From contig CAYGUC010000008.1 of the NCBI GenBank assembly GCA_964353005.1, positions 17,579 to 81,578 on the forward strand: DNA of 64,000 bases. Reading direction: 5' to 3'. Positions 24,615 through 37,654 of the stretch are shown here, piece by piece. The stretch is from an uncultured Flavobacteriaceae bacterium. Lineage in GTDB: Bacteria > Bacteroidota > Bacteroidia > Flavobacteriales > Flavobacteriaceae. Position numbers and translations under genes: made by a program. The notes below the pieces were generated by a model, which saw nothing but the letters and a program-made list of their open reading frames with translations, had not been told where the DNA came from and did not search any database. How positions within the stretch are numbered: position 1 is the stretch's first letter; every line of letters begins with the position of its first letter.

Positions 24615-24840
24615 ATTTTTCTTAAAAATTTAGTATTTATTTTAGAAATTTCTGAAAATAAGAAACATTTTTTATGAATATAAACTTATCTCCCAAACTA
24701 CACAATTTACCCCATAAACAACACCAATACGTCTACAAAAATTAATAAACCTCTACAATCTGTATTGTTATTTTAATCTGTAAGCATAAAATATTGTACG
24801 TTAAATAAATGATAAAACAATGTGCTGCATTGTTATTTTT

Positions 24841-24855
24841 TGCAACTTTGGTGCA
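24841..24855. promoter_or_regulatory. Palindrome TGCAACTTTGGTGCA, 5 bp upstream of the ATG at 24861 (site 1 of 3)
   Basis: Near-perfect inverted repeat (one mismatch). Nearly identical to the sites at 31060 and 37040. Confidence 0.5.
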
Positions 24856-24860
24856 ATAAG

Positions 24861-25208
24861 ATGAAAAATATAAAGACTTTCTCTTCCATTATTAGATTGC
24901 CTTTATTGGCATGGGTACTCTTATTGGTGTTTTTAACCAACCCGATAATTGAAGGGGTTCATCATCTTACAATTCTACATTCTGATACTAGTCCAATCTC
25001 TAATGATCTGGAACTACACTCTTCTAATCCAGATTGTATACTATGCGATTTTCTAATAGATAGAAAGGTTCCTTATTTATTATCCAATTTTACCATAATA
25101 GAGGATATTCCAAAAGATGTTATGCATTTCGCACCAAACTTATTGGAAGATTTATACGTATTTGATATTCTTCTATTTCCTTTGGCAAACAGCCCTCCTT
25201 TATCCTAA
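24861..25208 (+). CDS. Small membrane-anchored His/Cys-motif protein (115 aa from the ATG at 24861)
   Basis: N-terminal TM (LPLLAWVLLLVFL), then GVHHLTILHSD...CILCD and a C-terminal SPPLS. Paralogous to 52543-52851. The track start at 24822 is a GTG, and the internal ATG is preferred. Confidence 0.6.
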   Translation: MKNIKTFSSIIRLPLLAWVLLLVFLTNPIIEGVHHLTILHSDTSPISNDLELHSSNPDCILCDFLIDRKVPYLLSNFTIIEDIPKDVMHFAPNLLEDLYVFDILLFPLANSPPLS

Positions 25209-25372
25209 AAAGTTTCGATTAGCAAGAAGCTAAAAAACTTATTTCTACTTATAAAATAATATAACTACTCTTTTTTAATAAAAGTAAGATAGTATGTACT
25301 ACTAAGTATTGTATATCTAAATATTAGAATACTCAAACATTTTACAGGCTTAACCAATAACTCTATAAACCC

Positions 25373-26071
25373 GTGCTACAAGCTATTAATTTAACAAAAA
25401 AATATCATAACCACACTGCTTTAGATAATTTAAACTTAACTGTAAATCGAGGAGATATTTTTTGTCTTCTTGGTCAAAACGGAGCAGGTAAAACAACTAC
25501 TATTAATCTTTTTTTGGGCTTTATTTCTCCTTCTAAAGGTAAAGCCCTTATAAATGGGGTTTTAGTTCAACAAAATGATAATGCTACCAAAAAATTCTTA
25601 GCCTATATCCCAGAAGTAGTTATGTTGTATAGCAATTTGACTAGTATAGAAAATCTGGATTTTTTTAGCAGGCTTGCTGGTTTTACATATTCTAAAGAGG
25701 AACTGGAGAAATTTCTGTGGTCTGTAGGATTACCTAACGATGCTTTTTATAAACGTTTAGGGCAATACTCTAAAGGGATGCGCCAAAAAGTAGGTATTGC
25801 TATTGCTATTGCCAAAAATGCAGATGTTTTATTAATGGATGAGCCTACATCTGGATTAGATCCTATGGCGATAAATGAATTTACAGAATTAGTAAAAAAT
25901 TTGAGCAACCAAGGTAAAGTAGTTCTAATCGCTACTCATGATCTTTTAAACGCAGTAGCTATAGGAACCAGAATAGGTATTATGCGTCGGGGTTGTTTGG
26001 TACATGAATTATCTAATGATAATATTAATGCAAACGAGCTTCAAGAAGTGTACTTAGAAACTATTTTATAA
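25373..26071 (+). CDS. ABC transporter ATP-binding protein
   Basis: Walker A (GQNGAGKTT), signature (YSKGMRQK), Walker B (LLMDEPTSGLD). GTG start. Confidence 0.9.
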   Translation: MLQAINLTKKYHNHTALDNLNLTVNRGDIFCLLGQNGAGKTTTINLFLGFISPSKGKALINGVLVQQNDNATKKFLAYIPEVVMLYSNLTSIENLDFFSRLAGFTYSKEELEKFLWSVGLPNDAFYKRLGQYSKGMRQKVGIAIAIAKNADVLLMDEPTSGLDPMAINEFTELVKNLSNQGKVVLIATHDLLNAVAIGTRIGIMRRGCLVHELSNDNINANELQEVYLETIL

Positions 26072-26078
26072 AAATAAT

Positions 26079-27473
26079 ATGTGGCTTATTATAGCAAGTA
26101 AAGAGATCAGACAAGCTTTTGGCAACCAAGTTTTTATTTTGTTGTGCATAATTACCTGGAGTATCCTAAGTATTTCTATTATTAACGGGTTTAAAAATTA
26201 CCAAAACATAAAACAACAACAACAAGACGCTGTAAGTTTATTTCATAATGAACTGTCCAAAAAAGATAGAGATCCGCACTCTGCTGCTCACTTCGGAACG
26301 TATATATTTAAACCTTTTACCCCTTTAAGTTTATATGACCCAGGAGTAACTAATTACAGTGGTTCTACCTATAGAGTAGAAGCACATAAACAATCAGAGA
26401 TGAACTTTGCAAGCCCTCCTGATACTACTACAATCCTTCGTTTTGGAGAGCTTTCTGCAAGTACTGTTTTACAGTTATTGATACCGCTGTTAATTATTAT
26501 TATTTCTTTTTCTTCGATCTCTAAAGAAAAAGAGGCAGGAACTCTTAAAATTATTTTTGCGCAAGGAGTACAACATCGCACTTTGTTATGGGGGAAAATT
26601 TTTGGTAATTATTTTATTATTATCCTAATTATTTTACCTGTTTTTATCTGTACTTTAATAACTGGTATATTTAGTACCGATATGTTCTTAAAAGCTATAT
26701 TATTTATAGTGGCTTATAGTTTCTATTTTTTTATAATTACCAGTATTTGTGTACTAATTTCGTATAGAAGTAAGACTTCTAAAGACTCTTTATTATTTCT
26801 TCTTTGCATCTGGATACTCTCTTGTATTGTTTTTCCTAAACTTATTGCTGGCATTGCTACAACAAAGTACCCTCTTATCTCTTATCATGAGTTTCAAGAA
26901 CAAATAGATCATGATTTTTCTTTTGGAATCCATAATGATGGTACTTATAAGGAGCGTAAAGAAAAAACGGAAGCCAAATTACTTGCTCAATATCAGATAG
27001 ACAGTATTTCTCTTTTACCGATAAATATAGATGGAGCATTACTGCAAGCTTCAGAAGACTATAACAGTAAAGTTTATCAATATAGATCTAAACCTGTTAC
27101 GCAACAAATGGAACGACAAAAACATGTATATAAATTAGCATCCTTTTTTACCCCATATATTTCTATTCAACAAGCTTCTATGGCTTTTGCAGGGACCGAT
27201 TTATATCACCATCACAATTTTCATAAAAAAGCCAGAATATATCGGGATGGTTTCGTAAAAACATTAAATACAGAGCTTACCAAAATTCCAAAAGATCAAG
27301 AACATATTGTAAACACTACTTTTTTAAAAAACATGAAACAGTTTAGCTATAATTTACCTTCTGTACGATTTGTATTCGAAAAGCAATACTTGGTATTTCT
27401 ATCTTTTTTTTACTGGTTGGTAGCACTAATACTAGCAATAGAAATAAGTATTAAAAAGAAAAGCATTTTATAA
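26079..27473 (+). CDS. Large ABC-2-type permease (DUF3526-like as recalled)
   Basis: N-terminal TM, a central cluster of about five TM helices, a soluble segment of about 150 aa and a C-terminal TM. Follows the ATPase with an 8-bp gap. Confidence 0.7.
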   Translation: MWLIIASKEIRQAFGNQVFILLCIITWSILSISIINGFKNYQNIKQQQQDAVSLFHNELSKKDRDPHSAAHFGTYIFKPFTPLSLYDPGVTNYSGSTYRVEAHKQSEMNFASPPDTTTILRFGELSASTVLQLLIPLLIIIISFSSISKEKEAGTLKIIFAQGVQHRTLLWGKIFGNYFIIILIILPVFICTLITGIFSTDMFLKAILFIVAYSFYFFIITSICVLISYRSKTSKDSLLFLLCIWILSCIVFPKLIAGIATTKYPLISYHEFQEQIDHDFSFGIHNDGTYKERKEKTEAKLLAQYQIDSISLLPINIDGALLQASEDYNSKVYQYRSKPVTQQMERQKHVYKLASFFTPYISIQQASMAFAGTDLYHHHNFHKKARIYRDGFVKTLNTELTKIPKDQEHIVNTTFLKNMKQFSYNLPSVRFVFEKQYLVFLSFFYWLVALILAIEISIKKKSIL

Positions 27474-27476
27474 AAT

Positions 27477-28913
27477 ATGAAGACTATTTTTTTATTTGAA
27501 TGGAAAAAGTTAGTTCGAAGTTCGTTAAATATATATCTTCTGGTATTCTTTATCTGTTTGGGAGGCTATAGCATTTATTATGGTTACAGTGTTACAAAAA
27601 AACAAGTCTTGGTTATTCATGATTTAGAAAATCTGTACAAAAAACAAGTACAAACTACCATTAGTTATTTTGATGCAGACACTACTACTAACAAGGGAAA
27701 AGCTTTATATAATAAAGCGACTCAACCAGATTGGATAGAGCATTTAATCACCCCAATTGCTACATTTTATCCCAATTCTTTTTCATCTATGGCTATTGGT
27801 CATCGAGATGTATATCCTTTTTACAAGGAGATTTCTACAAAGGATAATTCTTTATATGTTTTTGATGCTAATATTTCAAATCCAGAAATATTAGCTTCTG
27901 GTAATTTTGATTTATCCTTTGTAATCATCTATTTGATTCCTTTACTTATGATCGTTTTGTGTCATAATGTTATCTCTGAAGAAAAAGAACAAGGAACATT
28001 TATACTAATTAAATCGCAAAGTAATCACTTTCAAAAATTTATATTCTATAAATTACTTTTTAGAGCATTACTCCTTTTAATTCTTACTTCGATACTCAGT
28101 ATAGTTGCTGCATATTGGTCTCCTATAAGTTCTCCTTTATCTATTTTGGATTTATTGTGCTGGCAATTTGTAATGATTTGTTATTTGTTTTTTTGGTTTG
28201 CTGTTTGCTATTTATTTATCTCTTTTCAGAAAAATGCTATTGTTACATCTCTGTATATGATTGGCATATGGTTATTACTAAGCTTTGTTATTCCTTCTCT
28301 TTTTAATTTCTATATAGATATTTCTCACCCTACAGGAATAAAAGCAGATATGGCCTCTGAAAAACGAAAAATAGAAGAAAGTGTTTGGGATCTTGAACCT
28401 AAAGTGCTACTCCAAAAATTTTATAGCCATTATCCTGAATATGATACAGAAAACCCTAACGATACTATAAAATACAATCCTAAACATTTTGTTGCTTATT
28501 ATGATGCTCTCGAAAAACAACTAATACCCATAGCCAAAATACATAAGGATAGAGAAAATGAAAGAAAGGAACTAATGTCTAAACTATCTGATTTCATCCC
28601 CACTTTGAAAATACAAAAAACACTAAATCAAATTGGCAATACGGATTTTAATAGCTACAAATACTTTGAAGAATCTACATTGTCGTTTCAGATAAAATGG
28701 AAAAAATTTATTTATCACTTCATCTTTAAAGATAAAAACCTACAAATAAATGATTACTTAACAATGCCAAAATACCCCAAAGTTGGGTTACAAAAACAGT
28801 ATAAAAAAATTTTAGGAAGTGCAATAACCTTTATTTTACTGGCCTTTATCATAATCTTATTACAAACATACGTAACATACAATTCGAATACATATTTAAC
28901 AATCAAACAATGA
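27477..28913 (+). CDS. Large ABC-2-type permease (DUF3526-like as recalled), paralog of the preceding gene
   Basis: Same architecture as 26079-27473. There is a 3-bp gap upstream and a 4-bp overlap with the downstream receptor gene. Confidence 0.7.
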   Translation: MKTIFLFEWKKLVRSSLNIYLLVFFICLGGYSIYYGYSVTKKQVLVIHDLENLYKKQVQTTISYFDADTTTNKGKALYNKATQPDWIEHLITPIATFYPNSFSSMAIGHRDVYPFYKEISTKDNSLYVFDANISNPEILASGNFDLSFVIIYLIPLLMIVLCHNVISEEKEQGTFILIKSQSNHFQKFIFYKLLFRALLLLILTSILSIVAAYWSPISSPLSILDLLCWQFVMICYLFFWFAVCYLFISFQKNAIVTSLYMIGIWLLLSFVIPSLFNFYIDISHPTGIKADMASEKRKIEESVWDLEPKVLLQKFYSHYPEYDTENPNDTIKYNPKHFVAYYDALEKQLIPIAKIHKDRENERKELMSKLSDFIPTLKIQKTLNQIGNTDFNSYKYFEESTLSFQIKWKKFIYHFIFKDKNLQINDYLTMPKYPKVGLQKQYKKILGSAITFILLAFIIILLQTYVTYNSNTYLTIKQ

Positions 28914-31039
28914 ACAAGCACCTTTTAATAGTCGTATTGACTATAGCAATCCCTTTACAAATTTGGGGTCAAACTCCTAAACAAGATAAAGACGATCCCA
29001 AAAAACCAGTTGAATTATCAGAGGTATTGGTTACTCAAAATAAACGAAAAATAAAAAATGACACCATTTCTAGTACTCTAAAAATAGACACTCCATTGAT
29101 TGAGATCCCTCAAAATATCGTTAGTGTATCCTCTTCGCTTTTAAAAGAGCAAGGAGTATTTGTTCTTCGAGATGCTGCTCGTAATGCAAGTGGTGTATAC
29201 TTTGGATTAAACAACGATGTTTTTGACGGCGCAGGAAATTTATATTTAAGAGGTTTTACTCTTAATGGAATTTTTAGAAATGGGCTCCCCAGTGGTGATT
29301 TTAGAGGATCCCAGGATGATGAAGCAATAATAGATCAAATAGAATTTATTAAAGGGCCCGCAGGTTTTTTAGGATCTACTGGTGAGGCTGGAGGAAAGAT
29401 TAATATCGTTACAAAAACCCCTGGTAATTCTAAAATTTTAAATGCTACACTTACAGGAGGTAGCTACAATTTTTATAGAGCTTCTATCGATATGGGTTCT
29501 AGTATAAAAGAAAAAGGGTTCTCATATCGTTTTAATACAGCCTATAATTATCAACAATATTTTGTAGATATTATGGAGAGTCGTAAATATATTATTGCAC
29601 CTGTTGTACAATATAACTTTACCAAACATACTTCTATCTTAGCAGAATATATTTTAAATAATCAAACTGCTATTTCAGGATCTACTTTTACCAAATTTTT
29701 TCCTGTAGACAAAATTTTAACTGATGACAGAAGAGCTAATTATCTTGCAGACCCTGGATTGCCTAATTCTACTTCTAAATCACAAAACGCCAGAGTTGTT
29801 TTTAAACATGAGTTTAATGACAATTGGAGGATAACTCACCAATCGTCTTATTCTAAAACCCCTGCCGAAACATGGTCTTTTTTATCTGAAGAAACATACA
29901 ATGCTGTAGGATTTGATGAGAACGGAAAAACAAACAGACTCGCATGGAGATCTGTTACAGACAATAAAACTCTATCTACCCAGTTTTTTGTAAATGGAAA
30001 GTTTAATACTGGAGAAAAAATAAAACACAAGATATTAATAGGAACGGAATACGCCATATCTAAGGAATCTGTTTATCAAACTTTTGGACTAAAATCATTT
30101 CCTTTTGATATAAATAATTTACAATATGGATTAGATAGAAATGAACTTTTAGATCAAGAAGCTTTTTTAGATTATAGAGCTAACAACCACTTTTTATCTA
30201 TATATTTTTATAACAATATAAAAATAGGCAAAAAATTAAGTATAGATCTTGGAGGACGATATACCGATAATCAAAATGAAACTATTTTTGATCCTAATGC
30301 TACTACATTTGATCAAGATGCTTTTACCCCCAGAGCAGGTATAACATATTTGATCGACAAAAATACTGCGGTATTTGCACTTTATGACGAAAGTTTTGTG
30401 CCCAGAAGCGGTCAAGACAAACAAGGAAACCTTTTTAAGCCAATACGTGGTCAGGATAAAGAACTGGGAATCAAAAAAAACTGGTTTGATGGGTTATTAT
30501 CTACCTCGGTTACTGCTTTTCATATCTCGAGAAATAATATGGTTACGCAAGATCCTGCTGATCCATTATTTAACAGACAACTAGGGCAGATTGTTAGTAA
30601 AGGTGTTGAAATAGATATCCTAGGTAATATAACCAAAAACATAGCTGTATCTGCTAACTATGCGTATACAAAAGCTACCATAACCAAAGATACAGATCCT
30701 GCTATTGTTGGACAGCTTTCTTCTTTTTCTCCAAAAGAACTAATTAATAGTTGGATACGTTATTCTTTTCCTGCCAATACAATTCGTGGTCTTAGTATAA
30801 GTTTAGGACATACTTCTATTATAAAAAGAGCAACCAATACAGTAGGTGCTTTTTTACCAGACTATACCAAATTTGATGGATCTATTGCTTATACAAAAGG
30901 AAAAATAACTACTCGATTATTACTCGATAATCTTACTGATAAACGATATATCTTAACTGGTGATATTTATGAAGGTAATGCATACTATACAGAAGGAACT
31001 CCTTTTAATTTCAAAATCTCGCTAAGTGTTAAGTTGTAG
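28910..31039 (+). CDS. TonB-dependent siderophore-type outer-membrane receptor
   Basis: Signal peptide, plug-domain motifs (IEFIKGPAGFLGSTGEAGGKINIVTK), size of about 700 aa and a terminal barrel strand ending ...ISLSVKL. Confidence 0.85.
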   Translation: MNKHLLIVVLTIAIPLQIWGQTPKQDKDDPKKPVELSEVLVTQNKRKIKNDTISSTLKIDTPLIEIPQNIVSVSSSLLKEQGVFVLRDAARNASGVYFGLNNDVFDGAGNLYLRGFTLNGIFRNGLPSGDFRGSQDDEAIIDQIEFIKGPAGFLGSTGEAGGKINIVTKTPGNSKILNATLTGGSYNFYRASIDMGSSIKEKGFSYRFNTAYNYQQYFVDIMESRKYIIAPVVQYNFTKHTSILAEYILNNQTAISGSTFTKFFPVDKILTDDRRANYLADPGLPNSTSKSQNARVVFKHEFNDNWRITHQSSYSKTPAETWSFLSEETYNAVGFDENGKTNRLAWRSVTDNKTLSTQFFVNGKFNTGEKIKHKILIGTEYAISKESVYQTFGLKSFPFDINNLQYGLDRNELLDQEAFLDYRANNHFLSIYFYNNIKIGKKLSIDLGGRYTDNQNETIFDPNATTFDQDAFTPRAGITYLIDKNTAVFALYDESFVPRSGQDKQGNLFKPIRGQDKELGIKKNWFDGLLSTSVTAFHISRNNMVTQDPADPLFNRQLGQIVSKGVEIDILGNITKNIAVSANYAYTKATITKDTDPAIVGQLSSFSPKELINSWIRYSFPANTIRGLSISLGHTSIIKRATNTVGAFLPDYTKFDGSIAYTKGKITTRLLLDNLTDKRYILTGDIYEGNAYYTEGTPFNFKISLSVKL

Positions 31040-31059
31040 AAAAATCATGTTAATTAAAA

Positions 31060-31074
31060 TGCAACTTAGTTGCA
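31060..31074. promoter_or_regulatory. Palindrome TGCAACTTAGTTGCA (site 2 of 3); could also serve as the receptor-gene terminator stem
   Basis: Perfect inverted repeat, extendable to aaaatgcaac tta gttgcatttt (31056-31078). Lies between the receptor stop (31039) and the precursor start (31167). Confidence 0.5.
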
Positions 31075-31166
31075 TTTTAATTATTTCTTGCTTATTTTTA
31101 ATCGTTGCAACAAAATGGGATAAGCCGACCCCATTTTTATAAGGCATAATTTAAAAATTATCAAAC

Positions 31167-31364
31167 ATGAAAAATTCAAAGAATAAATTAACATTAGATG
31201 AATTACAAGTAGAAAGTTTTGTAACTAGCATCAGTTCTGAAGTATCACAACATATCGCTGGTGGTATGGGTATAGCTAAGCACCCAACTCATACTGGCAG
31301 AACAGATCGTCATGCAGGATGCACATGCGCAAATCAGCTTCAAGGGCCTGCCTTTGATTTATAA
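31167..31364 (+). CDS. Lanthipeptide-type RiPP precursor peptide (33-aa leader ending GG, 32-aa core)
   Basis: MKNSKNKLTLDELQVESFVTSISSEVSQHIAGG | MGIAKHPTHTGRTDRHAGCTCANQLQGPAFDL. Convergent with the LanC-like gene and adjacent to it. Confidence 0.7.
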   Translation: MKNSKNKLTLDELQVESFVTSISSEVSQHIAGGMGIAKHPTHTGRTDRHAGCTCANQLQGPAFDL

Positions 31365-31371
31365 AAATTAT

Positions 31372-31396
31372 ATGCGGGCTATATTATAGCCCGCAT
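31372..31396. terminator. Bidirectional hairpin terminator between the precursor and the LanC-like gene
   Basis: atgcgggctat / atagcccgcat perfect 11-bp stem with a 3-nt loop, followed by T-rich sequence. Confidence 0.8.
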
Positions 31397-31399
31397 TCT

Positions 31400-33346
31400 T
31401 TATTTAGTCTCTATAAAATTTTGTTCCATAAAATATAATAACTGTTGTATCAGTCTATTCTGTATAGTTTCTTCATCATGCGTTCCTAATTTCTTTTTTA
31501 ACAACTCTATTAAATCATACAAAGTTCTTGGTCTTTTTAAGATATCCAGTAGTAAAGTACTAGATAGATTAAGAGGAAATTCTTCTATATCTTGAAGCCC
31601 TAATCTTAATAAAACAGGGTGTATATCTCTATCGATATACTGATTTTTTATACACATATTTTTATCAAATTTTGGCCATTGCCATTCGCAGTTTATTATT
31701 TTGATATTTTTACTTGTCTGAAATGTATATTTATAAAACAAACTTGGGTCTAGGTTTTTAAATTTAGATAGTTGTTTTATAAAAAAATCATTTTTATGTT
31801 CTCGATAAATGTTATAATTAGAATTCACAAGCATTTCTATAGCAGCACTTTCTAACTTAAAGACATCCTTTGCTATTTTGCTTTTTTCTGCATCTAGTGT
31901 TTTTATAAGGGTTGAAATCTTTCTACCAAAACCACGACTATTAAACCCATACTGTCCATTTTTGTAAATTATATCTACACAAATATTATTACTCTCTAAA
32001 AACCAAACGGTTCGTTTTACATATTTTTCGTAAATATTTTTTTTAAAACACTCCAAAGTCACTTTACTCTCTACAGGAAATTGCTTTTTAGATTTAATTC
32101 TTGGTAGAAGTATCGAGTCTATGTTTTTATCTAATATTTGTAAAAATAAATGTCCTATACCCGAAACACCAACTAACAACGCAGGATCTTGTTTATTTGT
32201 ATACCATCCTGATCCATAAAAACCTGTATCCTTCCTATCCTCTATTACTTTATTTACTAAGTTTTGCACTTCATTTGTTAAGGATTTTTCTCTTAAACCT
32301 CTAGAAGCAGTAAGTAGTAACTCTATCCATGACCCAATACCAGTACTTAAAGTATAATTTGGCTCCTTTATCTCTCTTTTAATATCCGAAATAGTTTTAG
32401 TAATTGCTCTTGTTGCAAAATTTTTATATCTCTTTTTTTTAAGAAACCTGTACGCATTAAGTCTTGATAATCCTATACCAGAATTGCCATGTGCCCAAGT
32501 ATTAACATCTTCTTCATTTTCTAAATAATAAGATAAACCTTGCTCTAAGGATATGCTTTTTATTTTTGGGTTATCAGAAACTTGCATATTAATCCAAGAG
32601 CCCAACGAAGTACTATAATATTCGTCCTCATAAGCAAATGCTTTTTCTGCAATCCATTTTAATTCTGGATAATCCAGAGCCTCTCCTATTTCTAATAAAA
32701 CATGTGCAATACCGCATGCCCCATGCGACATACCAATTAGACTATCTATAGTCTCACTAACATACCCCCATTTTAATCCATATTTTGAAATGCGTGCATT
32801 CTTCAATATTTTTTCTATAAGTATTTTAATTGTTTTTTCTTGGTCGGTATCTTTTGTATAGGTATATAATAATGTTATTACAAATAAATTTCCTGCATTT
32901 CCACTTAATAAATCATCTAATTCTACTTCATTTACAATTCCACTTTTAAGTTCTAAAAACAATGCATTTGCTTTATCTAAATTTAATGAGTTTTCTGTAG
33001 CTTCATATAATTTTACTAAAGCATAGATAACCCCAACTGTTCCTGTATAAAAAGTATAGTACTTAGTAGCGAGTGTTTTTATATGATGAATTGACCAGGA
33101 AATACTTTTTTCTGCGATATGTAAATATTTATCCTCTTTAGTATATTTATATAAGGAAATAAAGAATAAAGAAATTCCGGATACTCCATTATAAATTTCT
33201 TCATTTACTTGACTATAAAGCTCTCCATAAGGTTGCTTATGTAATGTTTCCCAATACAACCCATTTGCATCCTCTTTTGAATTCTTAATTAACTCTTCTG
33301 CTATCCACAATACTTCCTTATATACTATATTTTTTATTTTACGCAT
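31400..33346 (-). CDS. LanC-like (lanthionine synthetase C family) protein with an uncharacterised C-terminal extension of about 230 aa
   Basis: Seven GxxG-type toroid repeats (NGVSGISLF, TGTVGVIYAL, SGNAGNLFV, MSHGACGIAHVL, AHGNSGIGLS, STGIGSWIEL, VGVSGIGHLF). The LanC portion ends near aa 415 of 648. Confidence 0.75.
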   Translation of the reverse strand: MRKIKNIVYKEVLWIAEELIKNSKEDANGLYWETLHKQPYGELYSQVNEEIYNGVSGISLFFISLYKYTKEDKYLHIAEKSISWSIHHIKTLATKYYTFYTGTVGVIYALVKLYEATENSLNLDKANALFLELKSGIVNEVELDDLLSGNAGNLFVITLLYTYTKDTDQEKTIKILIEKILKNARISKYGLKWGYVSETIDSLIGMSHGACGIAHVLLEIGEALDYPELKWIAEKAFAYEDEYYSTSLGSWINMQVSDNPKIKSISLEQGLSYYLENEEDVNTWAHGNSGIGLSRLNAYRFLKKKRYKNFATRAITKTISDIKREIKEPNYTLSTGIGSWIELLLTASRGLREKSLTNEVQNLVNKVIEDRKDTGFYGSGWYTNKQDPALLVGVSGIGHLFLQILDKNIDSILLPRIKSKKQFPVESKVTLECFKKNIYEKYVKRTVWFLESNNICVDIIYKNGQYGFNSRGFGRKISTLIKTLDAEKSKIAKDVFKLESAAIEMLVNSNYNIYREHKNDFFIKQLSKFKNLDPSLFYKYTFQTSKNIKIINCEWQWPKFDKNMCIKNQYIDRDIHPVLLRLGLQDIEEFPLNLSSTLLLDILKRPRTLYDLIELLKKKLGTHDEETIQNRLIQQLLYFMEQNFIETK

Positions 33347-34238
33347 CTAGACTTCTATTTTCTAAACATTTATACAATAAATAAACAAGATAAGCCTCGT
33401 CTGCATTTATGATACCTATACGATTATGTGTTATATGCATAAAACTAGTAGTGATACTCAATTCTACCTTTAAGCTGATTTTTTTTTCTTTGTATCCCTT
33501 ATTTACATTCGCATTTTTTAAAAAATATGTGTTTAACCAAGTATCTTTTTGAAGATTTATTTCAATATCTTTTAAGAATGTAGAGATTACTGGTATCATT
33601 TGTTCTTTGTATACATCAAATTTTTTAGCAAATTCTGAAAGAAAAAATTGCTGCTGCTCTTTTTCTGGTTTAGATACATCATATAAAACAGGAAGCCACT
33701 CTTGTACAAAAAGCTTGCAAGCATTCTTCATTTCCTCAGTACTAAATCTTATACTAACAAAAAAAAGCAAATGCATTTTTATTGCTAATAGAAAGGCTGT
33801 ATTGTCTTTCCAGTTTTTAGAATAGTATGCCAAATTATACAATACAACTTCAGAACTGGATTCAAATTGTTTCTCTGCTTCCTCCATTACATGCACACCA
33901 CCATATCTATTTATCTCAGGAATATAATCCACAAATTGAATAGGATTACATAGATTTTTTTTGTCTTTTATTGTATTTTTTTCTGTAATAGACCAATATA
34001 TTTCGCTTTCTTTTTTCAGTCTTTCTTTCCATTTGTTTTCCTTATCTTTTTCGACTAACAATCTTAGCCTTATATGCGGCCCTCCTTCATTATATCGAAT
34101 AAAAAAGTATTTCGACAAACCTTTTTCTTTTTGCATTTTTTCTATAAAAAGATGAACAAAATCTATAAGAAATTTATTTGCGGATCCTTTATAAAATAAA
34201 TACGCTGAAATCCATATTTGATTACTTGTGTCTATCAT
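33339..34238 (-). CDS. Stand-alone LanB C-terminal (SpaB_C / thiopeptide-type glutamate-elimination) domain protein
   Basis: Signature WISAYLFY...KYFFIRYNEGGPHIRLRL. Size of about 300 aa, with an 8-bp overlap onto the LanC-like gene. Confidence 0.75.
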   Translation of the reverse strand: MIDTSNQIWISAYLFYKGSANKFLIDFVHLFIEKMQKEKGLSKYFFIRYNEGGPHIRLRLLVEKDKENKWKERLKKESEIYWSITEKNTIKDKKNLCNPIQFVDYIPEINRYGGVHVMEEAEKQFESSSEVVLYNLAYYSKNWKDNTAFLLAIKMHLLFFVSIRFSTEEMKNACKLFVQEWLPVLYDVSKPEKEQQQFFLSEFAKKFDVYKEQMIPVISTFLKDIEINLQKDTWLNTYFLKNANVNKGYKEKKISLKVELSITTSFMHITHNRIGIINADEAYLVYLLYKCLENRSLDA

Positions 34239-34240
34239 AA

Positions 34241-36958
34241 TTATTTAAAATACCATTGTACCAAGAGTTCATTAACTGGTTGTTCTTTTAGTGTTTCTGT
34301 ATCTGGAGACATCTCTTCAAAATAGATATACTCCTTGGCTTTTTTAAGTAATTTATTCCATAAAATCATAAGTAATGGGCTATCAAATCGAATATATTGT
34401 GGTTTATAATCGTCTGCCTGACCTTGCTCTTTTGTAGTTGAATTAGCTCGTAGATATAAAAAAATCTGATCAGGAAAATTGTGTTTTTGTTTCCATTGGT
34501 TAATGGATAAAAAATAGTCGGCATCACTTTGTTGCTCTCCTTTTTTTGGGATGGATTCTGTAAGCACAGACCATCGTTTTCTTTTTAAAATAATTTGTTT
34601 ATTATATATCAGTCTAGGGAAATAATAAATTTCCTGTTTTGTAGATGTTTTCTTAGTGTCAAATAGTAATTCTTGTACCGCTTTTTGTATTGGTCTAAAA
34701 CTTATTGTCTGGTCTGGAGAAAAATAGGATAACAGTTGGTATAGTTTTGACCGATGATCTAAAGACTCGAGGCAGAGATCAAATGGCAAAATTCGTTTAC
34801 CTGTAACAGAATGTTTTAAGCATACTTCTTGAATATCTTCATCAAAATATACCCGAATATCTTTTACTGCAATTTGTGATTCTATGGGCAAACTGGTATG
34901 CCCATCAGGAATTTTAATTTCGTGATCTAATAATGGAGGGTGAGAGTTCGCATTAAAATAAGATCCATCACTTAACTCCATAAATAAGGATTCTTTAGAA
35001 TTTTGCACATTATGTGTTTTCAAATCCTTTGTTATATTAGGATTAAAAAGATGCAAAAATCGACCACTTGCTCTTCCCATACCTTGAGAAATGCTATTTA
35101 CAACAACTTGAAAATTATTTTCAACATAAAATACTTGCATAAACATTCCTCGAGAAATCAATGGTGTTTTTCTATTGTTTTTCCATTGTTCCTGCATTGT
35201 TTTTAGAATATTAGTATCTATATGTATTTCATCTTTATTTTTATCAATTATTGGTTTTAAAATACATTTAAAATCTTCGATCCATTTACGATAGGTTTGA
35301 TTATAATTTTCTTGATGTTCATCTATATATCTATCTGTATTATCATTCTTAAGATCTTGTTGGGATTTTTTTATATGTAGATAATATAGATTATAAAAAT
35401 CCAAAAGGCTTATTTCTGCTTTTTTACCGTAATAATCTATATAAAAAGATTGTATTCTGTTTCTTTCTTCTTGAAAACTATCTAATGGCTGTAATAGATC
35501 TATAAGACTATTTATATCTTTGATAGCAGTAGTAAGCAGTGTTTTACTAACCTCTCCTCTCTCCTTTATAAAACTATCTTCATATATTAATTTTTCTGTA
35601 GTAAGTGATGGAAGTACATATAGATGTTTTTTTAATTTTTCTGAAGCAAATAAACTTTTATAGTTTTCTTTATATGCTTTATAATCTTTTTTAAAAATGT
35701 TCATGTTTTCTAGAAAATGCTCAAATAGCATACTAAAATCTTTAAACATTTCTTCCAAAATTGTACTTCTCTCTTTTGTATTAGAGGTAGCATAAATTTC
35801 ACAACATACGTGTTGTTTTTCCAAAACTAAAATCGTTTGTTTTAAAGACTGTGAAGATGATTTTATTTGCCTAAGAAAATTCAGTAATTTCGAACTCCAA
35901 TCTGGATCTATCCCCGAAGTTTTAAAATCAAATTCTAAAAGACCTATTTCTACTAATTTTAATAAATACTCTTTTATTTCTTTAGGATTTCCTGCTATAG
36001 ATTCTTGTAACTTTTCAATGAACTCATACATCCTTAAAGAATCTTTTTGCTTTACTATTTCCAAAAGCAATTGTATTACACCAGTATGAGGTATGTTTTG
36101 AAAAGATTCTAAATTATGAAAATTAATAAGAAAAGATACTTTATCCTCTGTTGTTTGGATTGTTGGGTTAAGCTTTAGATATAAATATTCATTAATTTCG
36201 GGATGTAGAATAAGTAGTGTTTTTAAATAATCAAATATCCCGTTATTTAACCTTATTTTACTCTGTATTTCGCCTTTTGCAAGTGTATAGGCATCTTCTT
36301 TTTCAATTAAATTACACACTCCCAGATTAGTAAAAGTGCTAAAAGGAGAAGTCTTAAAGTACATTCGGGTAAGATATCGTAACAAACTATACTCTAATCG
36401 GATTTCTTTTTTACCAAAAGAGGATACTGCTTTTTTTGAAAATGTATCTAACTGATTGTAAAAAACTTTACTCGATAATCTAACTCCTTTTTGAAAAAGT
36501 TCATTTTTTGATAATTCTTGTACTATACAACGATGCTCTCTAATGGTATCTATATATCTACTATCCCAGTTTATAAGTAGCTGCTCTTTCTTTTCTTTTA
36601 AAACAATATAAAGCTCAAATAAATCCTTATTTTCCTTATTTAATTTTTCTAAAAGTTTAATCCTATGTGTAGGAGTAATATTTCTAGAATTATAAACATC
36701 TCTTTTTATATTAATGAAAAATTGCTTGTCTGAAGGTGAGGAAGCCTCCCCTACTAAAGTGTGTAAATAATTACAAAGCTTATCTTTTAGAGTATCTATT
36801 TCTAATCCTAAAGTATTCAATTCTTTTATAAAACCCTTTACCGAATCATCCCTAAGCCTCTCAAAATCTAAATGATTACCAGAAGCATATCGAAGAAACG
36901 AGTATGGAAAAATTTCAAATTTCTCTAGACAATTAGCAGTATTTTTTTTCATTATCAA
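34241..36958 (-). CDS. Lantibiotic dehydratase N-terminal (glutamylation) domain protein (split LanB)
   Basis: 905 aa. The N-terminal F..FPYSFLRYASG and the internal GMGRASGRFLHLF are typical of Lant_dehydr_N as I recall it. A 2-bp gap separates it from the elimination-domain gene. Confidence 0.7.
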   Translation of the reverse strand: MIMKKNTANCLEKFEIFPYSFLRYASGNHLDFERLRDDSVKGFIKELNTLGLEIDTLKDKLCNYLHTLVGEASSPSDKQFFINIKRDVYNSRNITPTHRIKLLEKLNKENKDLFELYIVLKEKKEQLLINWDSRYIDTIREHRCIVQELSKNELFQKGVRLSSKVFYNQLDTFSKKAVSSFGKKEIRLEYSLLRYLTRMYFKTSPFSTFTNLGVCNLIEKEDAYTLAKGEIQSKIRLNNGIFDYLKTLLILHPEINEYLYLKLNPTIQTTEDKVSFLINFHNLESFQNIPHTGVIQLLLEIVKQKDSLRMYEFIEKLQESIAGNPKEIKEYLLKLVEIGLLEFDFKTSGIDPDWSSKLLNFLRQIKSSSQSLKQTILVLEKQHVCCEIYATSNTKERSTILEEMFKDFSMLFEHFLENMNIFKKDYKAYKENYKSLFASEKLKKHLYVLPSLTTEKLIYEDSFIKERGEVSKTLLTTAIKDINSLIDLLQPLDSFQEERNRIQSFYIDYYGKKAEISLLDFYNLYYLHIKKSQQDLKNDNTDRYIDEHQENYNQTYRKWIEDFKCILKPIIDKNKDEIHIDTNILKTMQEQWKNNRKTPLISRGMFMQVFYVENNFQVVVNSISQGMGRASGRFLHLFNPNITKDLKTHNVQNSKESLFMELSDGSYFNANSHPPLLDHEIKIPDGHTSLPIESQIAVKDIRVYFDEDIQEVCLKHSVTGKRILPFDLCLESLDHRSKLYQLLSYFSPDQTISFRPIQKAVQELLFDTKKTSTKQEIYYFPRLIYNKQIILKRKRWSVLTESIPKKGEQQSDADYFLSINQWKQKHNFPDQIFLYLRANSTTKEQGQADDYKPQYIRFDSPLLMILWNKLLKKAKEYIYFEEMSPDTETLKEQPVNELLVQWYFK

Positions 36959-37039
36959 TATAGTATCCTGAGGATGATATCTGTTATATATTCTGTTTTT
37001 GGCTCCAAAATTTTATAAAAAAACAAGCCTGGTAATTTT

Positions 37040-37054
37040 ATGCAACTTTGTTGC
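37040..37054. promoter_or_regulatory. Palindrome TGCAACTTTGTTGCA (site 3 of 3) in the divergent lanB / fur-like intergenic region
   Basis: Perfect inverted repeat. It lies 82 bp upstream of the lanB-N start (minus strand) and 145 bp upstream of the Fur-family gene (plus strand). Confidence 0.55.
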
Positions 37055-37198
37055 AATATATGAATTGTTTTTTAAAATAAATTATCTCTTTTATTGAAAT
37101 GGCATTTATATTATTTATATGTGTAGCCATTAATTATCCATATATTTATCGCACCATAACTTTTATATGCCAATAAATGATTAAATTTACTTTCTGAT

Positions 37199-37654
37199 AT
37201 GAATAAGGAATTTACTAGCTTATTAGAAAAACATCAACTAAGAAAAACGACTCCTCGTTTATCTGTACTTTCTATATTAAAATCCAGAAATACAGCGACT
37301 TCTCAACCAGAACTTGAAGCAATGATCGGAAAAGATGTGGATCGAGTAACTTTATACAGGATTCTTAAAACTTTTGAAGAAAAAGGAATCATTCATAAAA
37401 TACTGGATCTTAACGGAACCGCTAATTATGCAATTTGCCAATCTTCCTGCAAGGAACATGATCATAATGACAATCATGTACATTTTAATTGTACTGTATG
37501 CTTAAATATTTATTGTTTAGAAAACATACAAATTCCAAATATTAAAATGCCATCTGGTTTTGTATCCCATACCACAAATTTTGTATCGTATGGTATCTGT
37601 AAAAAATGTTCTGAAAAAGCAGATCAATATATAGGTTCAAATGATAAAGAATAG
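37199..37654 (+). CDS. Fur-family metalloregulator (Fur/Zur/PerR class not resolvable)
   Basis: Winged-helix region (TTPRLSVLSIL...VTLYRILKTFEEKGIIHK), a His cluster plus CxxC (HDHNDNHVHFNCTVC) and a second CxxC (GICKKC). Confidence 0.85.
   Translation: MNKEFTSLLEKHQLRKTTPRLSVLSILKSRNTATSQPELEAMIGKDVDRVTLYRILKTFEEKGIIHKILDLNGTANYAICQSSCKEHDHNDNHVHFNCTVCLNIYCLENIQIPNIKMPSGFVSHTTNFVSYGICKKCSEKADQYIGSNDKE

What the first reader, a model, noticed from the sequence alone, without database searches (positions are those of the whole stretch)
24840..37654. RiPP precursor is the terminal gene of an ABC/DUF3526-like/TonB-receptor array, bounded by a Fur-family regulator: a possible metal-responsive peptide production-and-uptake unit
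On the plus strand the gene order is:
- small His/Cys membrane protein;
- ABC ATPase;
- two unusually large ABC-2 permeases (464 and 478 aa);
- TonB-dependent siderophore-type receptor;
- the RiPP precursor, 127 bp further on.

The gene junctions from the ATPase to the receptor are 8 bp, 3 bp and a 4-bp overlap. The modification operon converges from the other side. A Fur-family regulator is transcribed divergently from it.

Physical coupling of a lanthipeptide precursor to a TonB-dependent receptor operon is not a described architecture, to my knowledge.

There are alternatives. The ABC system could be a LanFEG-like self-immunity or export pump. The juxtaposition could also be coincidental, because ATPase, DUF3526-like permeases and a receptor may occur together without RiPP genes in other genomes.
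Basis: inference. Interest (0 to 1): 0.75.

Follow-up and report, generated by a model that had tools for sequence, protein, structure and literature searches.

The report
Pinensin-type lanthipeptide cluster with metal-uptake operon
This is a marine flavobacterial copy of the known pinensin lanthipeptide gene cluster, and its conserved receptor/ABC operon, shared operator and Fur-type regulator suggest that these zinc-binding peptides are secreted and re-imported as metal scavengers rather than acting only as antifungals.

Summary
Gene order, junctions and families are as described (7-nt, not 8-bp, first gap; the small ORF starts at 24861).

The architecture is not new. The precursor carries the pinensin-family leader. 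Contigs encoding the exact pinensin precursor have the same gene order. [quoted passage not shown]

The linkage is not coincidence:
- All 9 sampled receptor relatives at 39% identity or more sit beside split-LanB/LanC genes, in several gene orders.
- Relatives at 30-32% sit in ordinary siderophore loci.
- Two clusters with a pinensin-type leader but another core lack the module.

Three points appear undescribed in the literature I could search:
- A palindrome, TGCAAC-N3-GTTGCA, lies ahead of all three transcription units and is conserved from Aquimarina to Chitinophaga.
- The small His/Cys protein has the motif layout of CruR (DUF2946) metal-sensing leader ORFs.
- The Fur-family regulator aligns with E. 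coli Zur's sensing site.

A 2026 paper reports that pinensins bind Zn(II) at about 4 nM. My best reading is a metal-repressed peptide metallophore (probably zinc) production-and-uptake unit. This is inferred, not shown.

The locus is a new member of a known kind.

The parts
24841..24855 (.). Operator-like palindrome 1 (TGCAACTTTGGTGCA), 5 nt upstream of the small ORF's ATG
   Evidence: only three sites in the 64-kb window, against 0.64 expected. The orthologous position is conserved in L001, L002, L003, L007, L009, L013, L014 and L018.
24861..25208 (+). Small membrane-anchored His/Cys protein (115 aa) with a CruR/DUF2946-like motif layout; candidate metal-sensing leader ORF
   Evidence: Features seen: an N-terminal TM segment, HH directly after the TM segment, CxxC at residue 59, a 47-residue spacer, and NSPP two residues from the C-terminus. 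The same layout occurs in 8 pinensin-type loci and in Eleftheria (annotated DUF2946) and Comamonas cassette leaders. There is no Pfam hit and hhalign is not significant.
25209..25372 (+). 164-nt intergenic region between the leader ORF and the ABC ATPase gene
   Evidence: Sequence. The length compares with the 162-bp region after B. pertussis cruR, where Rho-dependent termination is regulated (PMC9426467). A regulatory role here is inferred.
25373..26071 (+). ABC-2/DrrA-type ATPase (232 aa)
   Evidence: Pfam ABC_tran and AAA_21. Best NCBIfam matches are drrA, GldA and lantibiotic-protection ATPases, all below their cutoffs.
26079..27473 (+). ABC-2 permease with DUF3526 domain (464 aa)
   Evidence: Pfam ABC2_membrane_2 and DUF3526. 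The only PDB sequence match is NosY. Homologues at 26-33% identity occur in receptor-linked cassettes on plasmids.
27477..28913 (+). Second ABC-2 permease with DUF3526 domain (478 aa)
   Evidence: Pfam ABC2_membrane_2 and DUF3526.
28910..31039 (+). TonB-dependent metallophore-type receptor (709 aa), with no N-terminal signalling domain
   Evidence: TIGR01783 is above cutoff. Plug lies at residues 63-162 and no STN domain was found. Closest solved structures are FetA, FhuA, CntO and FoxA. Clade members at 39% identity or more are all Lan-linked.
31051..31083 (.). 33-nt perfect palindrome containing operator-like site 2 (core 31060-31074, TGCAACTTAGTTGCA); may also act as a terminator for the receptor operon
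   Evidence: The position between receptor and precursor is conserved in L001, L002, L003, L005, L006 and L015.
31104..31147 (+). Conserved element upstream of the precursor (GTTGCAAC, a GGG..AAGCCGA..CCC hairpin, then AGGCAT)
   Evidence: Alignments. It is present ahead of all pinensin-leader precursors, including two that lack the transport module. It is not in Rfam. Support for an RNA structure is weak.
31167..31364 (+). Pinensin-family class I lanthipeptide precursor (65 aa); the leader ends in GG and the core contains HPTHTGRTDRHAGCTC
   Evidence: NF038180 scores 46.3 bits against a cutoff of 24. The family alignment gives invariant H-P-T-H-T, D, C-T and C.
31372..31396 (.). GC-rich hairpin with T-runs on both strands; a bidirectional terminator between the precursor and LanC
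   Evidence: 11-bp stem, 6 GC pairs.
31400..33346 (-). LanC cyclase (648 aa) with a C-terminal extension of about 230 aa
   Evidence: Pfam LANC_like covers residues 47-411. The best NCBIfam match is the LanM cyclase domain. The C-terminus has a weak PqqD-like hit, E 0.067.
33339..34238 (-). Split LanB, elimination domain (299 aa)
   Evidence: Pfam Lant_dehydr_C and TIGR03891.
34241..36958 (-). Split LanB, glutamylation domain (905 aa)
   Evidence: Pfam Lant_dehydr_N.
37041..37055 (.). Operator-like palindrome 3 (TGCAACTTTGTTGCA) in the divergent LanB/Fur promoter region
   Evidence: The orthologous position is conserved.
37199..37654 (+). Fur-family metalloregulator (151 aa) with two CxxC pairs and a Cys/His-rich candidate sensing site
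   Evidence: Pfam FUR scores 35.2 bits. Invariant residues are H66, D70, C80, C84, E86, H89, D91, H93, H95, C98, C101, C134 and C137. In the profile alignment to E. coli Zur 4mtd, H66, C80 and H89 fall on Zur H77, C88 and H96.

Best explanation
The region is an orthologue of the pinensin biosynthetic gene cluster, and I read it as a metal-repressed peptide-metallophore unit.

What it encodes: a class I lanthipeptide with a conserved His-rich core (HPTHT..D..H..C-T-C). A split LanB and a LanC modify it.

Proposed mechanism:
1. When the metal is sufficient (most likely zinc, possibly copper), the Fur-family protein binds the 6-3-6 palindrome TGCAAC-N3-GTTGCA. That palindrome lies ahead of the import operon, the precursor and the LanB/LanC operon, so all three are silenced.
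2. The small CxxC..PP leader ORF adds a second control on the downstream transport genes, in the manner of CruR.
3. Under metal limitation the peptide is made and exported. The exporter is not encoded in this window.
4. Outside the cell the peptide binds the metal. The dedicated TonB-dependent receptor brings it back across the outer membrane.
5. The ABC-2/DUF3526 transporter then carries out the periplasmic or inner-membrane step. That could be import of the complex, or stripping and recycling of the peptide.

Shown: gene content, family membership, conserved linkage, and conserved palindromes. Inferred: who binds the palindrome, which metal is involved, the direction of ABC transport, and that the peptide is re-imported.
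For: 1. The precursor matches the pinensin leader model above cutoff. Contigs encoding the exact pinensin precursor have the identical order: leader ORF, ABC, two DUF3526 permeases, receptor, precursor, then convergent LanC, LanB_C, LanB_N and LanT.
2. Linkage is conserved and specific.
   - 9 of 9 sampled receptor homologues at 39-80% identity are beside Lan genes, in at least three gene orders. A. muelleri and a Pedobacter MAG add two more.
   - Bit scores fall from 524 to 362 at the clade edge.
   - Homologues at 30-32% sit in PepSY/IucA siderophore loci.
   - Clusters with a pinensin-type leader but a different Cys-rich core (L020, L021) have LanB/C/T but no receptor, no DUF3526 and no palindrome.
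3. The palindrome occurs exactly three times in the 64-kb window, all at promoter-side intergenic sites, against 0.64 expected. It sits at the orthologous sites in Pedobacter, Olivibacter and Chitinophaga. It gives no hits at 1 mismatch or fewer in about 107 kb of control loci.
4. The Fur-family gene stays in the cluster even when it moves. In L005 it lies beside the ABC gene.
5. Its invariant His/Cys residues align with the E. coli Zur sensing-site positions (the Zur site residues are from memory).
6. The receptor is closest to the metallophore receptors FetA, FhuA, CntO and FoxA.
7. Pinensin A and B bind Zn(II) with KD of 3.5 and 6.3 nM, and Cu(II) 20- to 120-fold more weakly (KD 129-420 nM) (PMC13532221).
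8. The transport module belongs to a widespread cassette: leader ORF, receptor, ABC-2 ATPase and two DUF3526 permeases. In C. crescentus, a receptor (ZnuK) next to an ABC-2 ATPase and two ABC-2 permeases (ZnuGHI) is Zur-repressed, and ZnuK is needed under zinc starvation (PMC4176598).
Against: - No experiment links this peptide, or any pinensin, to uptake or to growth under metal limitation.
- Zn binding was measured for C. pinensis pinensins, not for this core.
- ABC-2 folds are usually exporters, so an import role for the DUF3526 system is unorthodox.
- Most Chitinophaga, Olivibacter and Sinomicrobium clusters have no Fur gene within 10 kb, so the palindrome's binding protein is unidentified there.
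- The regulator scores far below the Zur, Fur and PerR equivalog cutoffs.
- The small ORF is not detected by the DUF2946 HMM or by hhalign.
- CruR senses copper, not zinc.
- This window has no C39 LanT exporter/peptidase, although the leader ends in GG.
- Whether ZnuH and ZnuI carry DUF3526 was not verified.
Confidence: 0.6

Rival explanations
1. The peptide is primarily an antagonistic (antifungal) lanthipeptide. The receptor/ABC operon serves 'perception and import' of the peptide as a signal or for turnover, as originally suggested for pinensin. Metal binding is incidental, or is only the killing mechanism through zinc starvation of competitors.
For: Pinensins were isolated as antifungals, and Cpin5321-5324 were suggested to act in perception and import (PMC10112250; PMC13532221). 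The family conserves rings and a hydrophobic C-terminus as well as the His residues.
Against: The receptor has no N-terminal STN signalling domain, and no conserved sigma/anti-sigma pair accompanies it. This argues against FecA-type perception. Fur-family control, a CxxC leader ORF and a metallophore-type receptor are what uptake systems look like. Zinc sequestration as a weapon and private re-uptake are compatible rather than exclusive.
Confidence: 0.2
2. The ABC-2/DUF3526 system is a LanFEG-like self-immunity or export pump. In Aquimarina, where no LanT is present, it is the exporter, and the receptor is a passenger of that operon.
For: The ATPase resembles DrrA and lantibiotic-protection ATPases (TIGR03740, 156 bits). 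ABC-2 transporters are typically exporters. The Aquimarina clusters lack a C39 LanT.
Against: - TIGR03740 is far below its cutoff of 309.75.
- LanE and LanG are about 250-aa permeases without DUF3526.
- The permeases are translationally coupled to the receptor by a 4-nt overlap.
- The same cassette occurs with a receptor and no Lan genes in Hymenobacter, Aureibacter, Comamonas and Eleftheria.
- Clusters that do have LanT keep the DUF3526 system.
- Pinensins are not reported to be antibacterial, so immunity is not obviously needed.
Confidence: 0.12
3. The juxtaposition is coincidental: an ordinary siderophore receptor operon happens to lie next to a lanthipeptide cluster.
For: Cassettes of receptor, ABC and DUF3526 permeases exist without RiPP genes.
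Against: Linkage holds in every sampled member of the receptor clade, across three classes, with unrelated flanks and rearranged order. The units share a palindrome. The module is absent from sister Lan clusters with other cores.
Confidence: 0.02

Closest known systems
Pinensin biosynthetic gene cluster of Chitinophaga pinensis DSM 2588 (MIBiG BGC0001392; Mohr et al. 2015)
   Same: - Pinensin-family leader.
- HPTHT..D..H..C core.
- Split LanB and a LanM-like LanC with a C-terminal extension.
- Identical order: leader ORF, ABC, two DUF3526 permeases, receptor, precursor, then convergent LanC/LanB genes.
- The palindrome lies ahead of the import operon and of the biosynthetic operon.
   Different: - The window has no C39 LanT and no OEP/MFS export genes.
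- It encodes a Fur-family regulator that the Chitinophaga loci lack.
- It has an extra palindrome ahead of the precursor.
- Its core is CTC-type with a longer C-terminal tail, rather than C-TTIIC.
- Protein identities are only 25-55%.
Methanobactin operons (RiPP chalkophore with the TonB-dependent receptor MbnT)
   Same: A ribosomal peptide that binds a metal with high affinity is encoded next to a dedicated TonB-dependent receptor, under metal-dependent control. This analogy rests on established knowledge and was not tested here.
   Different: The chemistry differs: oxazolone/thioamide and copper, against lanthionine rings and His ligands. So do the enzymes (MbnBC against LanB/LanC), the periplasmic partners (MbnE against ABC-2/DUF3526), and probably the metal.
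Caulobacter crescentus ZnuK / ZnuGHI (Zur regulon; PMC4176598)
   Same: A TonB-dependent receptor is adjacent to an ABC-2 ATPase and two ABC-2 permeases. They are repressed by a Fur-family protein through a 6-3-6 inverted repeat that overlaps the promoter.
   Different: No peptide biosynthesis genes are reported there. The operator sequence differs (TGTTAT-N3-ATAACA). Orthology was not tested here, nor whether ZnuH and ZnuI carry DUF3526.
CruR (DUF2946) copper-responsive upstream ORF of Bordetella pertussis bp2923-bfrG-bp2921 (PMC9426467)
   Same: A small exported or membrane-anchored first gene of a receptor operon, with a CxxC motif, a spacer of about 45 residues, an xxPP arrest-like motif near the C-terminus, and a downstream intergenic region of about 160 nt.
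   Different: - It is not recognised by the DUF2946 HMM or by hhalign.
- The motif is NSPP, RGPP or KGPP rather than RAPP in most members.
- The host is Bacteroidota.
- The metal and the mechanism are untested.
Pyoverdine uptake and recycling (FpvA with PvdRT-OpmQ) and the pseudopaline CntO system
   Same: A large metallophore is imported by a TonB-dependent receptor, the metal is released in the periplasm, and an ABC pump recycles the ligand. The receptor here resembles CntO and FhuA in sequence. The recycling analogy is inference.
   Different: The pump family differs (MacB-type against ABC-2/DUF3526). There is no evidence on transport direction here.

Membership tests
Pinensin-family class I lanthipeptide BGC | Precursor leader matches NF038180 (pinensin family lanthipeptide) | tested here: met
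   46.3 bits against a cutoff of 24, residues 7-33.
Pinensin-family class I lanthipeptide BGC | Core peptide with the family motif (H/E)PTHT..(T/S)D..H..C | tested here: met
   The window core is HPTHTGRTDRHAGCTC. H, P, T, H, T, D, C, T and C are invariant across 9 aligned precursors. The motif is present in the further family members whose sequences were retrieved (34 of the 71 hits), with a truncated exception.
Pinensin-family class I lanthipeptide BGC | Split LanB (separate glutamylation and elimination proteins) plus LanC | tested here: met
   Lant_dehydr_N (905 aa), Lant_dehydr_C (299 aa) and LANC_like (648 aa).
Pinensin-family class I lanthipeptide BGC | C39-peptidase ABC exporter (pinT) in the cluster | tested here: not met
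   tblastn with the Pedobacter LanT finds nothing in the 64-kb window. It is also absent from the two other Aquimarina loci and present in all other genera.
Pinensin-family class I lanthipeptide BGC | Homologues of the 'import' genes Cpin5321-5324 next to the precursor | tested here: met
   The ABC, two DUF3526 permeases and receptor are in the same order as on contigs encoding the exact PinA sequence. Equating these with Cpin5321-5324 is inferred from PMC10112250.
Pinensin-family class I lanthipeptide BGC | Product is a lanthionine-bridged peptide | not testable with these tools
   Needs isolation or heterologous expression and MS/NMR.
TonB-dependent siderophore/metallophore receptor (TIGR01783) | Plug plus 22-strand barrel, with a score above the curated cutoff | tested here: met
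   235.5 bits against a cutoff of 223.5. Pfam Plug and TonB_dep_Rec_b-barrel. PDB matches FetA, FhuA, CntO and FoxA.
TonB-dependent transducer (FecA-type signalling receptor) | N-terminal STN signalling domain and a partner anti-sigma/ECF sigma pair | tested here: not met
   No STN hit. Plug starts at residue 63, after the signal peptide. No conserved sigma/anti-sigma genes lie in the clusters.
Fur family metalloregulator | FUR domain above the Pfam cutoff, with structural CxxC pairs | tested here: met
   35.2 bits against a cutoff of 23.1. C98-x2-C101 and C134-x2-C137 are invariant.
Zur (zinc uptake regulator) subfamily | Equivalog-level match, and a His/Cys/His(/Glu) zinc-sensing site | tested here: inconclusive
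   NF008646 Zur scores 28.5 bits against a cutoff of 167; PerR scores 30.6 and Fur 25.1. In the profile alignment to 4mtd, H66, C80 and H89 fall on the Zur residues I recall as site B. The profile scores Zur 4mtd at 36.0 bits and the best Fur at 36.7 bits.
DUF2946 / CruR upstream regulatory ORF | Match to the PF11162 profile | tested here: not met
   No hit at E up to 10 for 8 family members. hhalign against two cassette leader ORFs (one annotated DUF2946, the other recognised by motif) gives probability 1.4%.
DUF2946 / CruR upstream regulatory ORF | Export signal, CxxC, a conserved spacer of about 45 residues, an xxPP arrest motif near the C-terminus, and first position in a receptor operon | tested here: met
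   The spacer is 44-47 residues in all 8 pinensin-type leader ORFs and in the Eleftheria and Comamonas examples. PP lies 2-6 residues from the end, apart from one longer call. The published spacing is 45 +/- 2.
DUF2946 / CruR upstream regulatory ORF | Metal-dependent ribosome arrest that controls downstream transcription | not testable with these tools
   Needs reporter fusions and CxxC/PP mutants.
LanFEG lantibiotic immunity ABC transporter | LanF-type ATPase above cutoff and two LanE/G permeases of about 250 aa | tested here: not met
   TIGR03740 scores 156.2 bits against a cutoff of 309.75. The permeases are 464 and 478 aa with DUF3526.
RiPP metallophore production-uptake system (methanobactin-like logic) | High-affinity metal binding by the mature peptide | not testable with these tools
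   Reported for C. pinensis pinensins A and B only (KD 3.5-6.3 nM for Zn; PMC13532221).
RiPP metallophore production-uptake system (methanobactin-like logic) | A dedicated receptor genetically coupled to the biosynthesis genes | tested here: met
   The receptor clade is exclusive to HPTHT-core clusters.
RiPP metallophore production-uptake system (methanobactin-like logic) | Metal-responsive expression and receptor-dependent uptake | not tested
   Only inferred, from the shared palindrome and the Fur-family gene.
ZnuK/ZnuGHI-type zinc uptake cassette | Receptor plus an ABC-2 ATPase plus two ABC-2 permeases under Zur control | tested here: inconclusive
   The composition matches.

The most novel reading that the evidence does not exclude
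Pinensin-family lanthipeptides are ribosomal zincophores, which would be the first lanthipeptide metallophores. On this reading their clusters are self-contained acquisition units with three elements:
- A dedicated TonB-dependent receptor and a DUF3526 ABC partner.
- A cluster-wide Fur/Zur-type operator (TGCAAC-N3-GTTGCA).
- A CruR-like arrest-peptide leader ORF, which would extend that mechanism to Bacteroidota.

The antifungal and metallo-beta-lactamase-inhibiting activities would then be by-products of zinc sequestration.
Probability: 0.5. Interest if true: 0.8.

Novelty: new member of a known kind. Interest (0 to 1): 0.6.

Why it matters
If the reading is right, lanthipeptides join methanobactins as ribosomal metallophores. 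It would also give pinensins a physiological role. Their mode of action has been unknown since 2015, and their zinc affinity was reported only in 2026.

The reading would explain four things:
- Why a 'lantibiotic' cluster in Gram-negative bacteria carries an uptake operon.
- It points to a receptor that could be used for Trojan-horse delivery.
- It assigns a working context to the uncharacterised DUF3526 ABC family, which partners TonB-dependent receptors in Proteobacteria and Bacteroidota.
- It supplies a candidate Fur-family operator for Bacteroidota.

Each step can be tested directly with reporter fusions, EMSA and growth under chelation.

Tried and rejected
1. RNA reading of the palindromes and of the precursor-upstream element.
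   - No Rfam family matches.
   - RNAalifold support is weak: energies of -5.5 and -2.7 kcal/mol with little covariation.
   - The palindrome arms are conserved in sequence while the central 3 nt vary. That fits a protein operator, not an RNA hairpin.
2. A metal-binding His cluster in DUF3526. The HHHNFH motif in perm1 is not conserved across cassette homologues, so I dropped it.
3. Homology of the small ORF to DUF2946 by HMM or hhalign. It is not significant. Only the motif layout is retained.
4. Sigma-54, ECF or Bacteroidota -33/-7 promoter readings of the palindrome. The spacing and key bases do not fit, by inspection. Only the import-operon sites resemble a -7 box (CAACTTTG).
5. Broad locus retrieval. 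The genome scan with LanC returned only 3 loci and the metagenome scan with the precursor profile only 8. Co-occurrence statistics therefore rest on about 15 distinct loci plus the receptor-side sampling.
6. Scanning whole genomes for further palindrome sites, to learn the regulon and hence the metal.
7. Structure prediction of the permease. I did not run it, because only single-sequence input was allowed for it and that would give a poor model.

Full report
**Observation.**
- Small ORF 24861..25208 +. The mechanical ORF starts at GTG 24822, but all orthologues begin MKN at the ATG.
- ABC ATPase 25373..26071 +.
- Two permeases of 464 and 478 aa, at 26079..27473 and 27477..28913.
- TonB-dependent receptor 28910..31039.
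- 65-aa precursor 31167..31364.
- Convergent LanC, Lant_dehydr_C and Lant_dehydr_N, together spanning 31400..36958 on the minus strand.
- Divergent Fur-family gene 37199..37654.

The gaps are 7 nt, 3 nt, a 4-nt overlap, and 127 nt.

Pfam and NCBIfam confirm every family.
- Both permeases are ABC2_membrane_2 plus DUF3526.
- The receptor passes the TIGR01783 siderophore-receptor cutoff.
- The precursor passes the curated 'pinensin family lanthipeptide' leader model (46.3 bits against 24).

**It is a pinensin cluster.**
- A profile of related precursors retrieved 71 family members. One is the exact C. pinensis / Chitinophaga sp. YR627 precursor, with core SHPTHTVATDDEGHLCTTIICA.
- Contigs encoding that exact sequence carry the same order. 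On one strand: small ORF, ABC ATPase, two DUF3526 permeases, receptor, precursor. Convergent to these: LanC, LanB_C, LanB_N and a C39 LanT.
- A 2023 genome announcement describes BGC0001392. [quoted passage not shown]
- So the physical coupling of a lanthipeptide precursor to a receptor/ABC operon was already noted in 2015.
- Walker et al. 2020 had already grouped these LanCs with LanM-type cyclase domains and noted GG leaders (PMC7268733). The NCBIfam hits here are consistent with that.

**The linkage is functional, not accidental.**
- Close and distant relatives of the precursor and of LanC all keep the full set, with unrelated flanks. These are A. muelleri, Aquimarina sp. MAR_2010_214, Pedobacter sp. 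CG_S7 and a Pedobacter MAG.
- I also searched from the receptor side. Its homologues form a clade at 39% identity or more and 524 bits or more, followed by a sharp drop to 362 bits.
- All nine sampled clade members sit beside split LanB/LanC genes together with two DUF3526 permeases. Besides the genera above they include Olivibacter, Chitinophaga flava, Sinomicrobium, Pedobacter HDW13 and two metagenomic contigs.
- These occur in at least three gene orders. One is LanT divergent from DUF3526-DUF3526-receptor.
- The next relatives, at 30-32% identity, lie in ordinary siderophore loci with PepSY_TM and IucA/IucC, and have no DUF3526.
- The reverse control also holds. Two metagenomic clusters have pinensin-type leaders but unrelated Cys-rich cores. 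They keep LanB/C/T but have no receptor and no DUF3526 permease within 10 kb.
- The transport module therefore tracks the His-rich HPTHT core, not the leader or the enzymes.

**A shared operator.**
- Reading the intergenic regions showed the same palindrome three times: 24841 (5 nt before the small ORF), 31060 (between receptor and precursor) and 37041 (the LanB/Fur divergent region).
- These are the only three matches in 64 kb, against 0.64 expected; no shuffle reached the observed count.
- TGCAAC-N3-GTTGCA recurs at the orthologous positions in Pedobacter, Aquimarina, Olivibacter, Chitinophaga and Pedobacter HDW13. In Sinomicrobium it appears as a 2-mismatch pair at the divergent promoter.
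- It is absent at 1 mismatch or fewer from about 107 kb of control loci: the siderophore outgroups and the non-HPTHT Lan clusters.
- The arms are conserved in sequence while the central three bases vary. That points to a dimeric DNA-binding protein rather than an RNA hairpin.
- The 6-3-6 (7-1-7) layout is that of Fur-family boxes. One example is the C. crescentus Zur box TGTTAT-N3-ATAACA (PMC4176598).

**The regulator.**
- The obvious candidate is the cluster's Fur-family protein. It stays in the cluster even when relocated (L005).
- It has two invariant CxxC pairs and an invariant Cys/His-rich segment.
- In a profile alignment, its H66, C80 and H89 fall on E. coli Zur H77, C88 and H96. From memory, those form Zur's sensing site, and Fur and PerR have Glu or Asp where Zur has Cys.
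- The subtype cannot be settled by score.
- Chitinophaga, Olivibacter and Sinomicrobium clusters have the palindrome but no nearby Fur gene. There the binder must be encoded elsewhere.

**The 'import' operon is a specialised copy of a widespread cassette.**
- tblastn of the first permease against plasmids found DUF3526 pairs at 26-33% identity.
- In Hymenobacter, Aureibacter, Comamonas and Eleftheria, the annotated neighbourhoods show a TonB-dependent receptor, an ABC ATPase and two DUF3526 proteins in one operon, with no RiPP genes.
- In Eleftheria the operon is headed by an annotated DUF2946 protein. In Comamonas it is headed by a small ORF with the same motifs.
- The small ORFs of all pinensin-type clusters share that layout:
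  - an N-terminal membrane anchor;
  - a His pair or (L/F)HxH just after the anchor;
  - CxxC, then a spacer of 44-47 residues;
  - (R/N/K)(A/G/S)PP near the C-terminus.
- This matches the published signature of CruR. CruR is the DUF2946 upstream ORF of B. pertussis. Its nascent CxxC senses copper and relieves ribosome arrest at RAPP, which triggers Rho termination in a 162-bp spacer before the receptor gene. The reported CXXC-RAPP spacing is 45 +/- 2 in more than 2000 proteins (PMC9426467).
- The window's spacer to the ABC gene is 164 nt.
- Statistical homology is not shown, however. There is no PF11162 hit and hhalign gives 1.4%. I claim 'works like', not membership.
- Separately, the C. crescentus Zur regulon contains a receptor (ZnuK) next to an ABC-2 ATPase and two ABC-2 permeases (ZnuGHI). 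These are derepressed 11- to 41-fold in a zur mutant, and ZnuK is needed under zinc starvation. I could not check whether ZnuH and ZnuI carry DUF3526.

**Metal.**
- A 2026 study measured by ITC that pinensin A and B bind Zn(II) with KD of 3.5 and 6.3 nM, and Cu(II) 20- to 120-fold more weakly (KD 129-420 nM). It attributes binding to histidines (PMC13532221).
- It does not discuss the cluster, receptors or a physiological role. It notes that pinensin-specific outer-membrane transport is unknown.
- The conserved core positions across the family are the His, Asp and Cys/Thr residues.
- The receptor's closest solved relatives are metallophore receptors, including the pseudopaline receptor CntO.
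- Full-text searches found no paper describing a lanthipeptide metallophore or zincophore, or linking pinensin to TonB uptake.

**Proposed mechanism, with status.**
- Shown: the gene families, the conserved and specific linkage, and the conserved palindromes at all promoters.
- Inferred:
  1. The Fur-family protein represses all three units when its metal, probably zinc, is plentiful.
  2. The leader ORF adds post-transcriptional control.
  3. The modified peptide is secreted, binds the metal, and returns through the receptor.
  4. The ABC-2/DUF3526 system handles the periplasmic or inner-membrane step.
- The direction of ABC transport is the weakest point. ABC-2 folds are usually exporters, and the only solved relative by sequence is NosY, part of a machine that does periplasmic copper work. 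Either import or peptide recycling, as with pyoverdine, is possible.
- The precursor probably has its own promoter. A 33-nt palindrome with a T-tail follows the receptor gene. A conserved 45-nt element precedes every pinensin-leader precursor, including those without the transport module.

**Unexplained.**
- The three Aquimarina clusters lack the C39 LanT that every other genus has, although the leader ends in GG.
- The identity of the palindrome-binding protein where no Fur gene is nearby.
- The function of the LanC C-terminal extension, which has a weak PqqD-like hit.

**Verdict.** The locus is a new member of the known pinensin BGC family, in a LanT-less variant that carries a Fur-family regulator.

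Its interest lies in the evidence assembled here that the family is a metal-regulated production-and-uptake system. I did not find that reading in the literature. It has not been tested experimentally, and each step can be.

Noticed in passing
window 31104-31147 (and the equivalent positions in L001-L007, L013-L018, L020): A conserved element of about 45 nt lies 20-60 nt upstream of every pinensin-leader precursor gene, including two precursors with unrelated cores. It consists of a short palindrome (GTTGCAAC, ATTGCGCAAT or GATTGCAATC), a GGG(G)..AAGCCGA..CCC(C) hairpin, and then AGGCAT. It is not in Rfam. It could be a promoter/activator site or a leader RNA.
   Followed up: partly
window 31400-32104 (C-terminal ~234 aa of LanC): The LanC proteins of this family carry a C-terminal extension of about 230 residues. 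Its last ~55 residues give a weak PqqD hit (E 0.067), so it may be a fused RiPP recognition element.
   Followed up: partly
whole window; L002, L003: All three Aquimarina clusters lack the C39-peptidase ABC exporter (LanT). It is present in the Pedobacter, Olivibacter, Chitinophaga and Sinomicrobium clusters. The Aquimarina leader still ends in GG.
   Followed up: partly
L005 1601-4235 and 20728-20994; L001 1577-3520: In a Pedobacter MAG, two extra copies of the palindrome precede an 801-aa OMP_b-brl_3 outer-membrane protein that heads the LanT-LanB-LanC operon. Further copies precede a 65-aa ORF. Pedobacter CG_S7 also has an OMP_b-brl_3 gene next to the cluster. This may be a further regulon member.
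   Followed up: partly
L005 598-1359 and 18598-20598; L001 19453-19818: The Pedobacter clusters lie beside mobile-element genes: a TraG/VirD4-like 666-aa protein (recognised by eye from its sequence, not checked against any library), excisionase-like ORFs, and an integrase fragment. This suggests horizontal transfer of the whole unit.
   Followed up: no
L024 (Aureibacter tunicatorum plasmid pAT2) 1-11660: A cassette of receptor, ABC and two DUF3526 permeases lies directly after CobN-like, MotA/ExbB and DUF2149 genes and a DUF4374 gene. From memory, that neighbourhood resembles zinc-starvation clusters in Pseudomonas.
   Followed up: no
window 31372-31396: A strong GC-rich hairpin with T-runs on both strands lies between the convergent precursor and LanC genes. 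It looks like a bidirectional terminator.
   Followed up: no
window 14696-14734 (+): Rfam DUF805b RNA motif above the gathering score (37.7 bits against 35.6), upstream of the ORF at 14755..16059.
   Followed up: no
window 21333-24614 (-) and 37781-40036 (+): The flanking genes are a 1093-aa FG-GAP/UnbV_ASPIC repeat protein and a 751-aa beta-helix protein. Both are syntenic with A. muelleri DSM 19832 (92% and 74% identity) but are absent from the other clusters' flanks, so they are not part of the unit.
   Followed up: yes
window 26079-27473, residues ~375-385 of perm1: A HHHNFH cluster lies in the DUF3526 domain of the first permease. It is not conserved in other cassette homologues, so it is probably not a general metal site.
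   Followed up: yes
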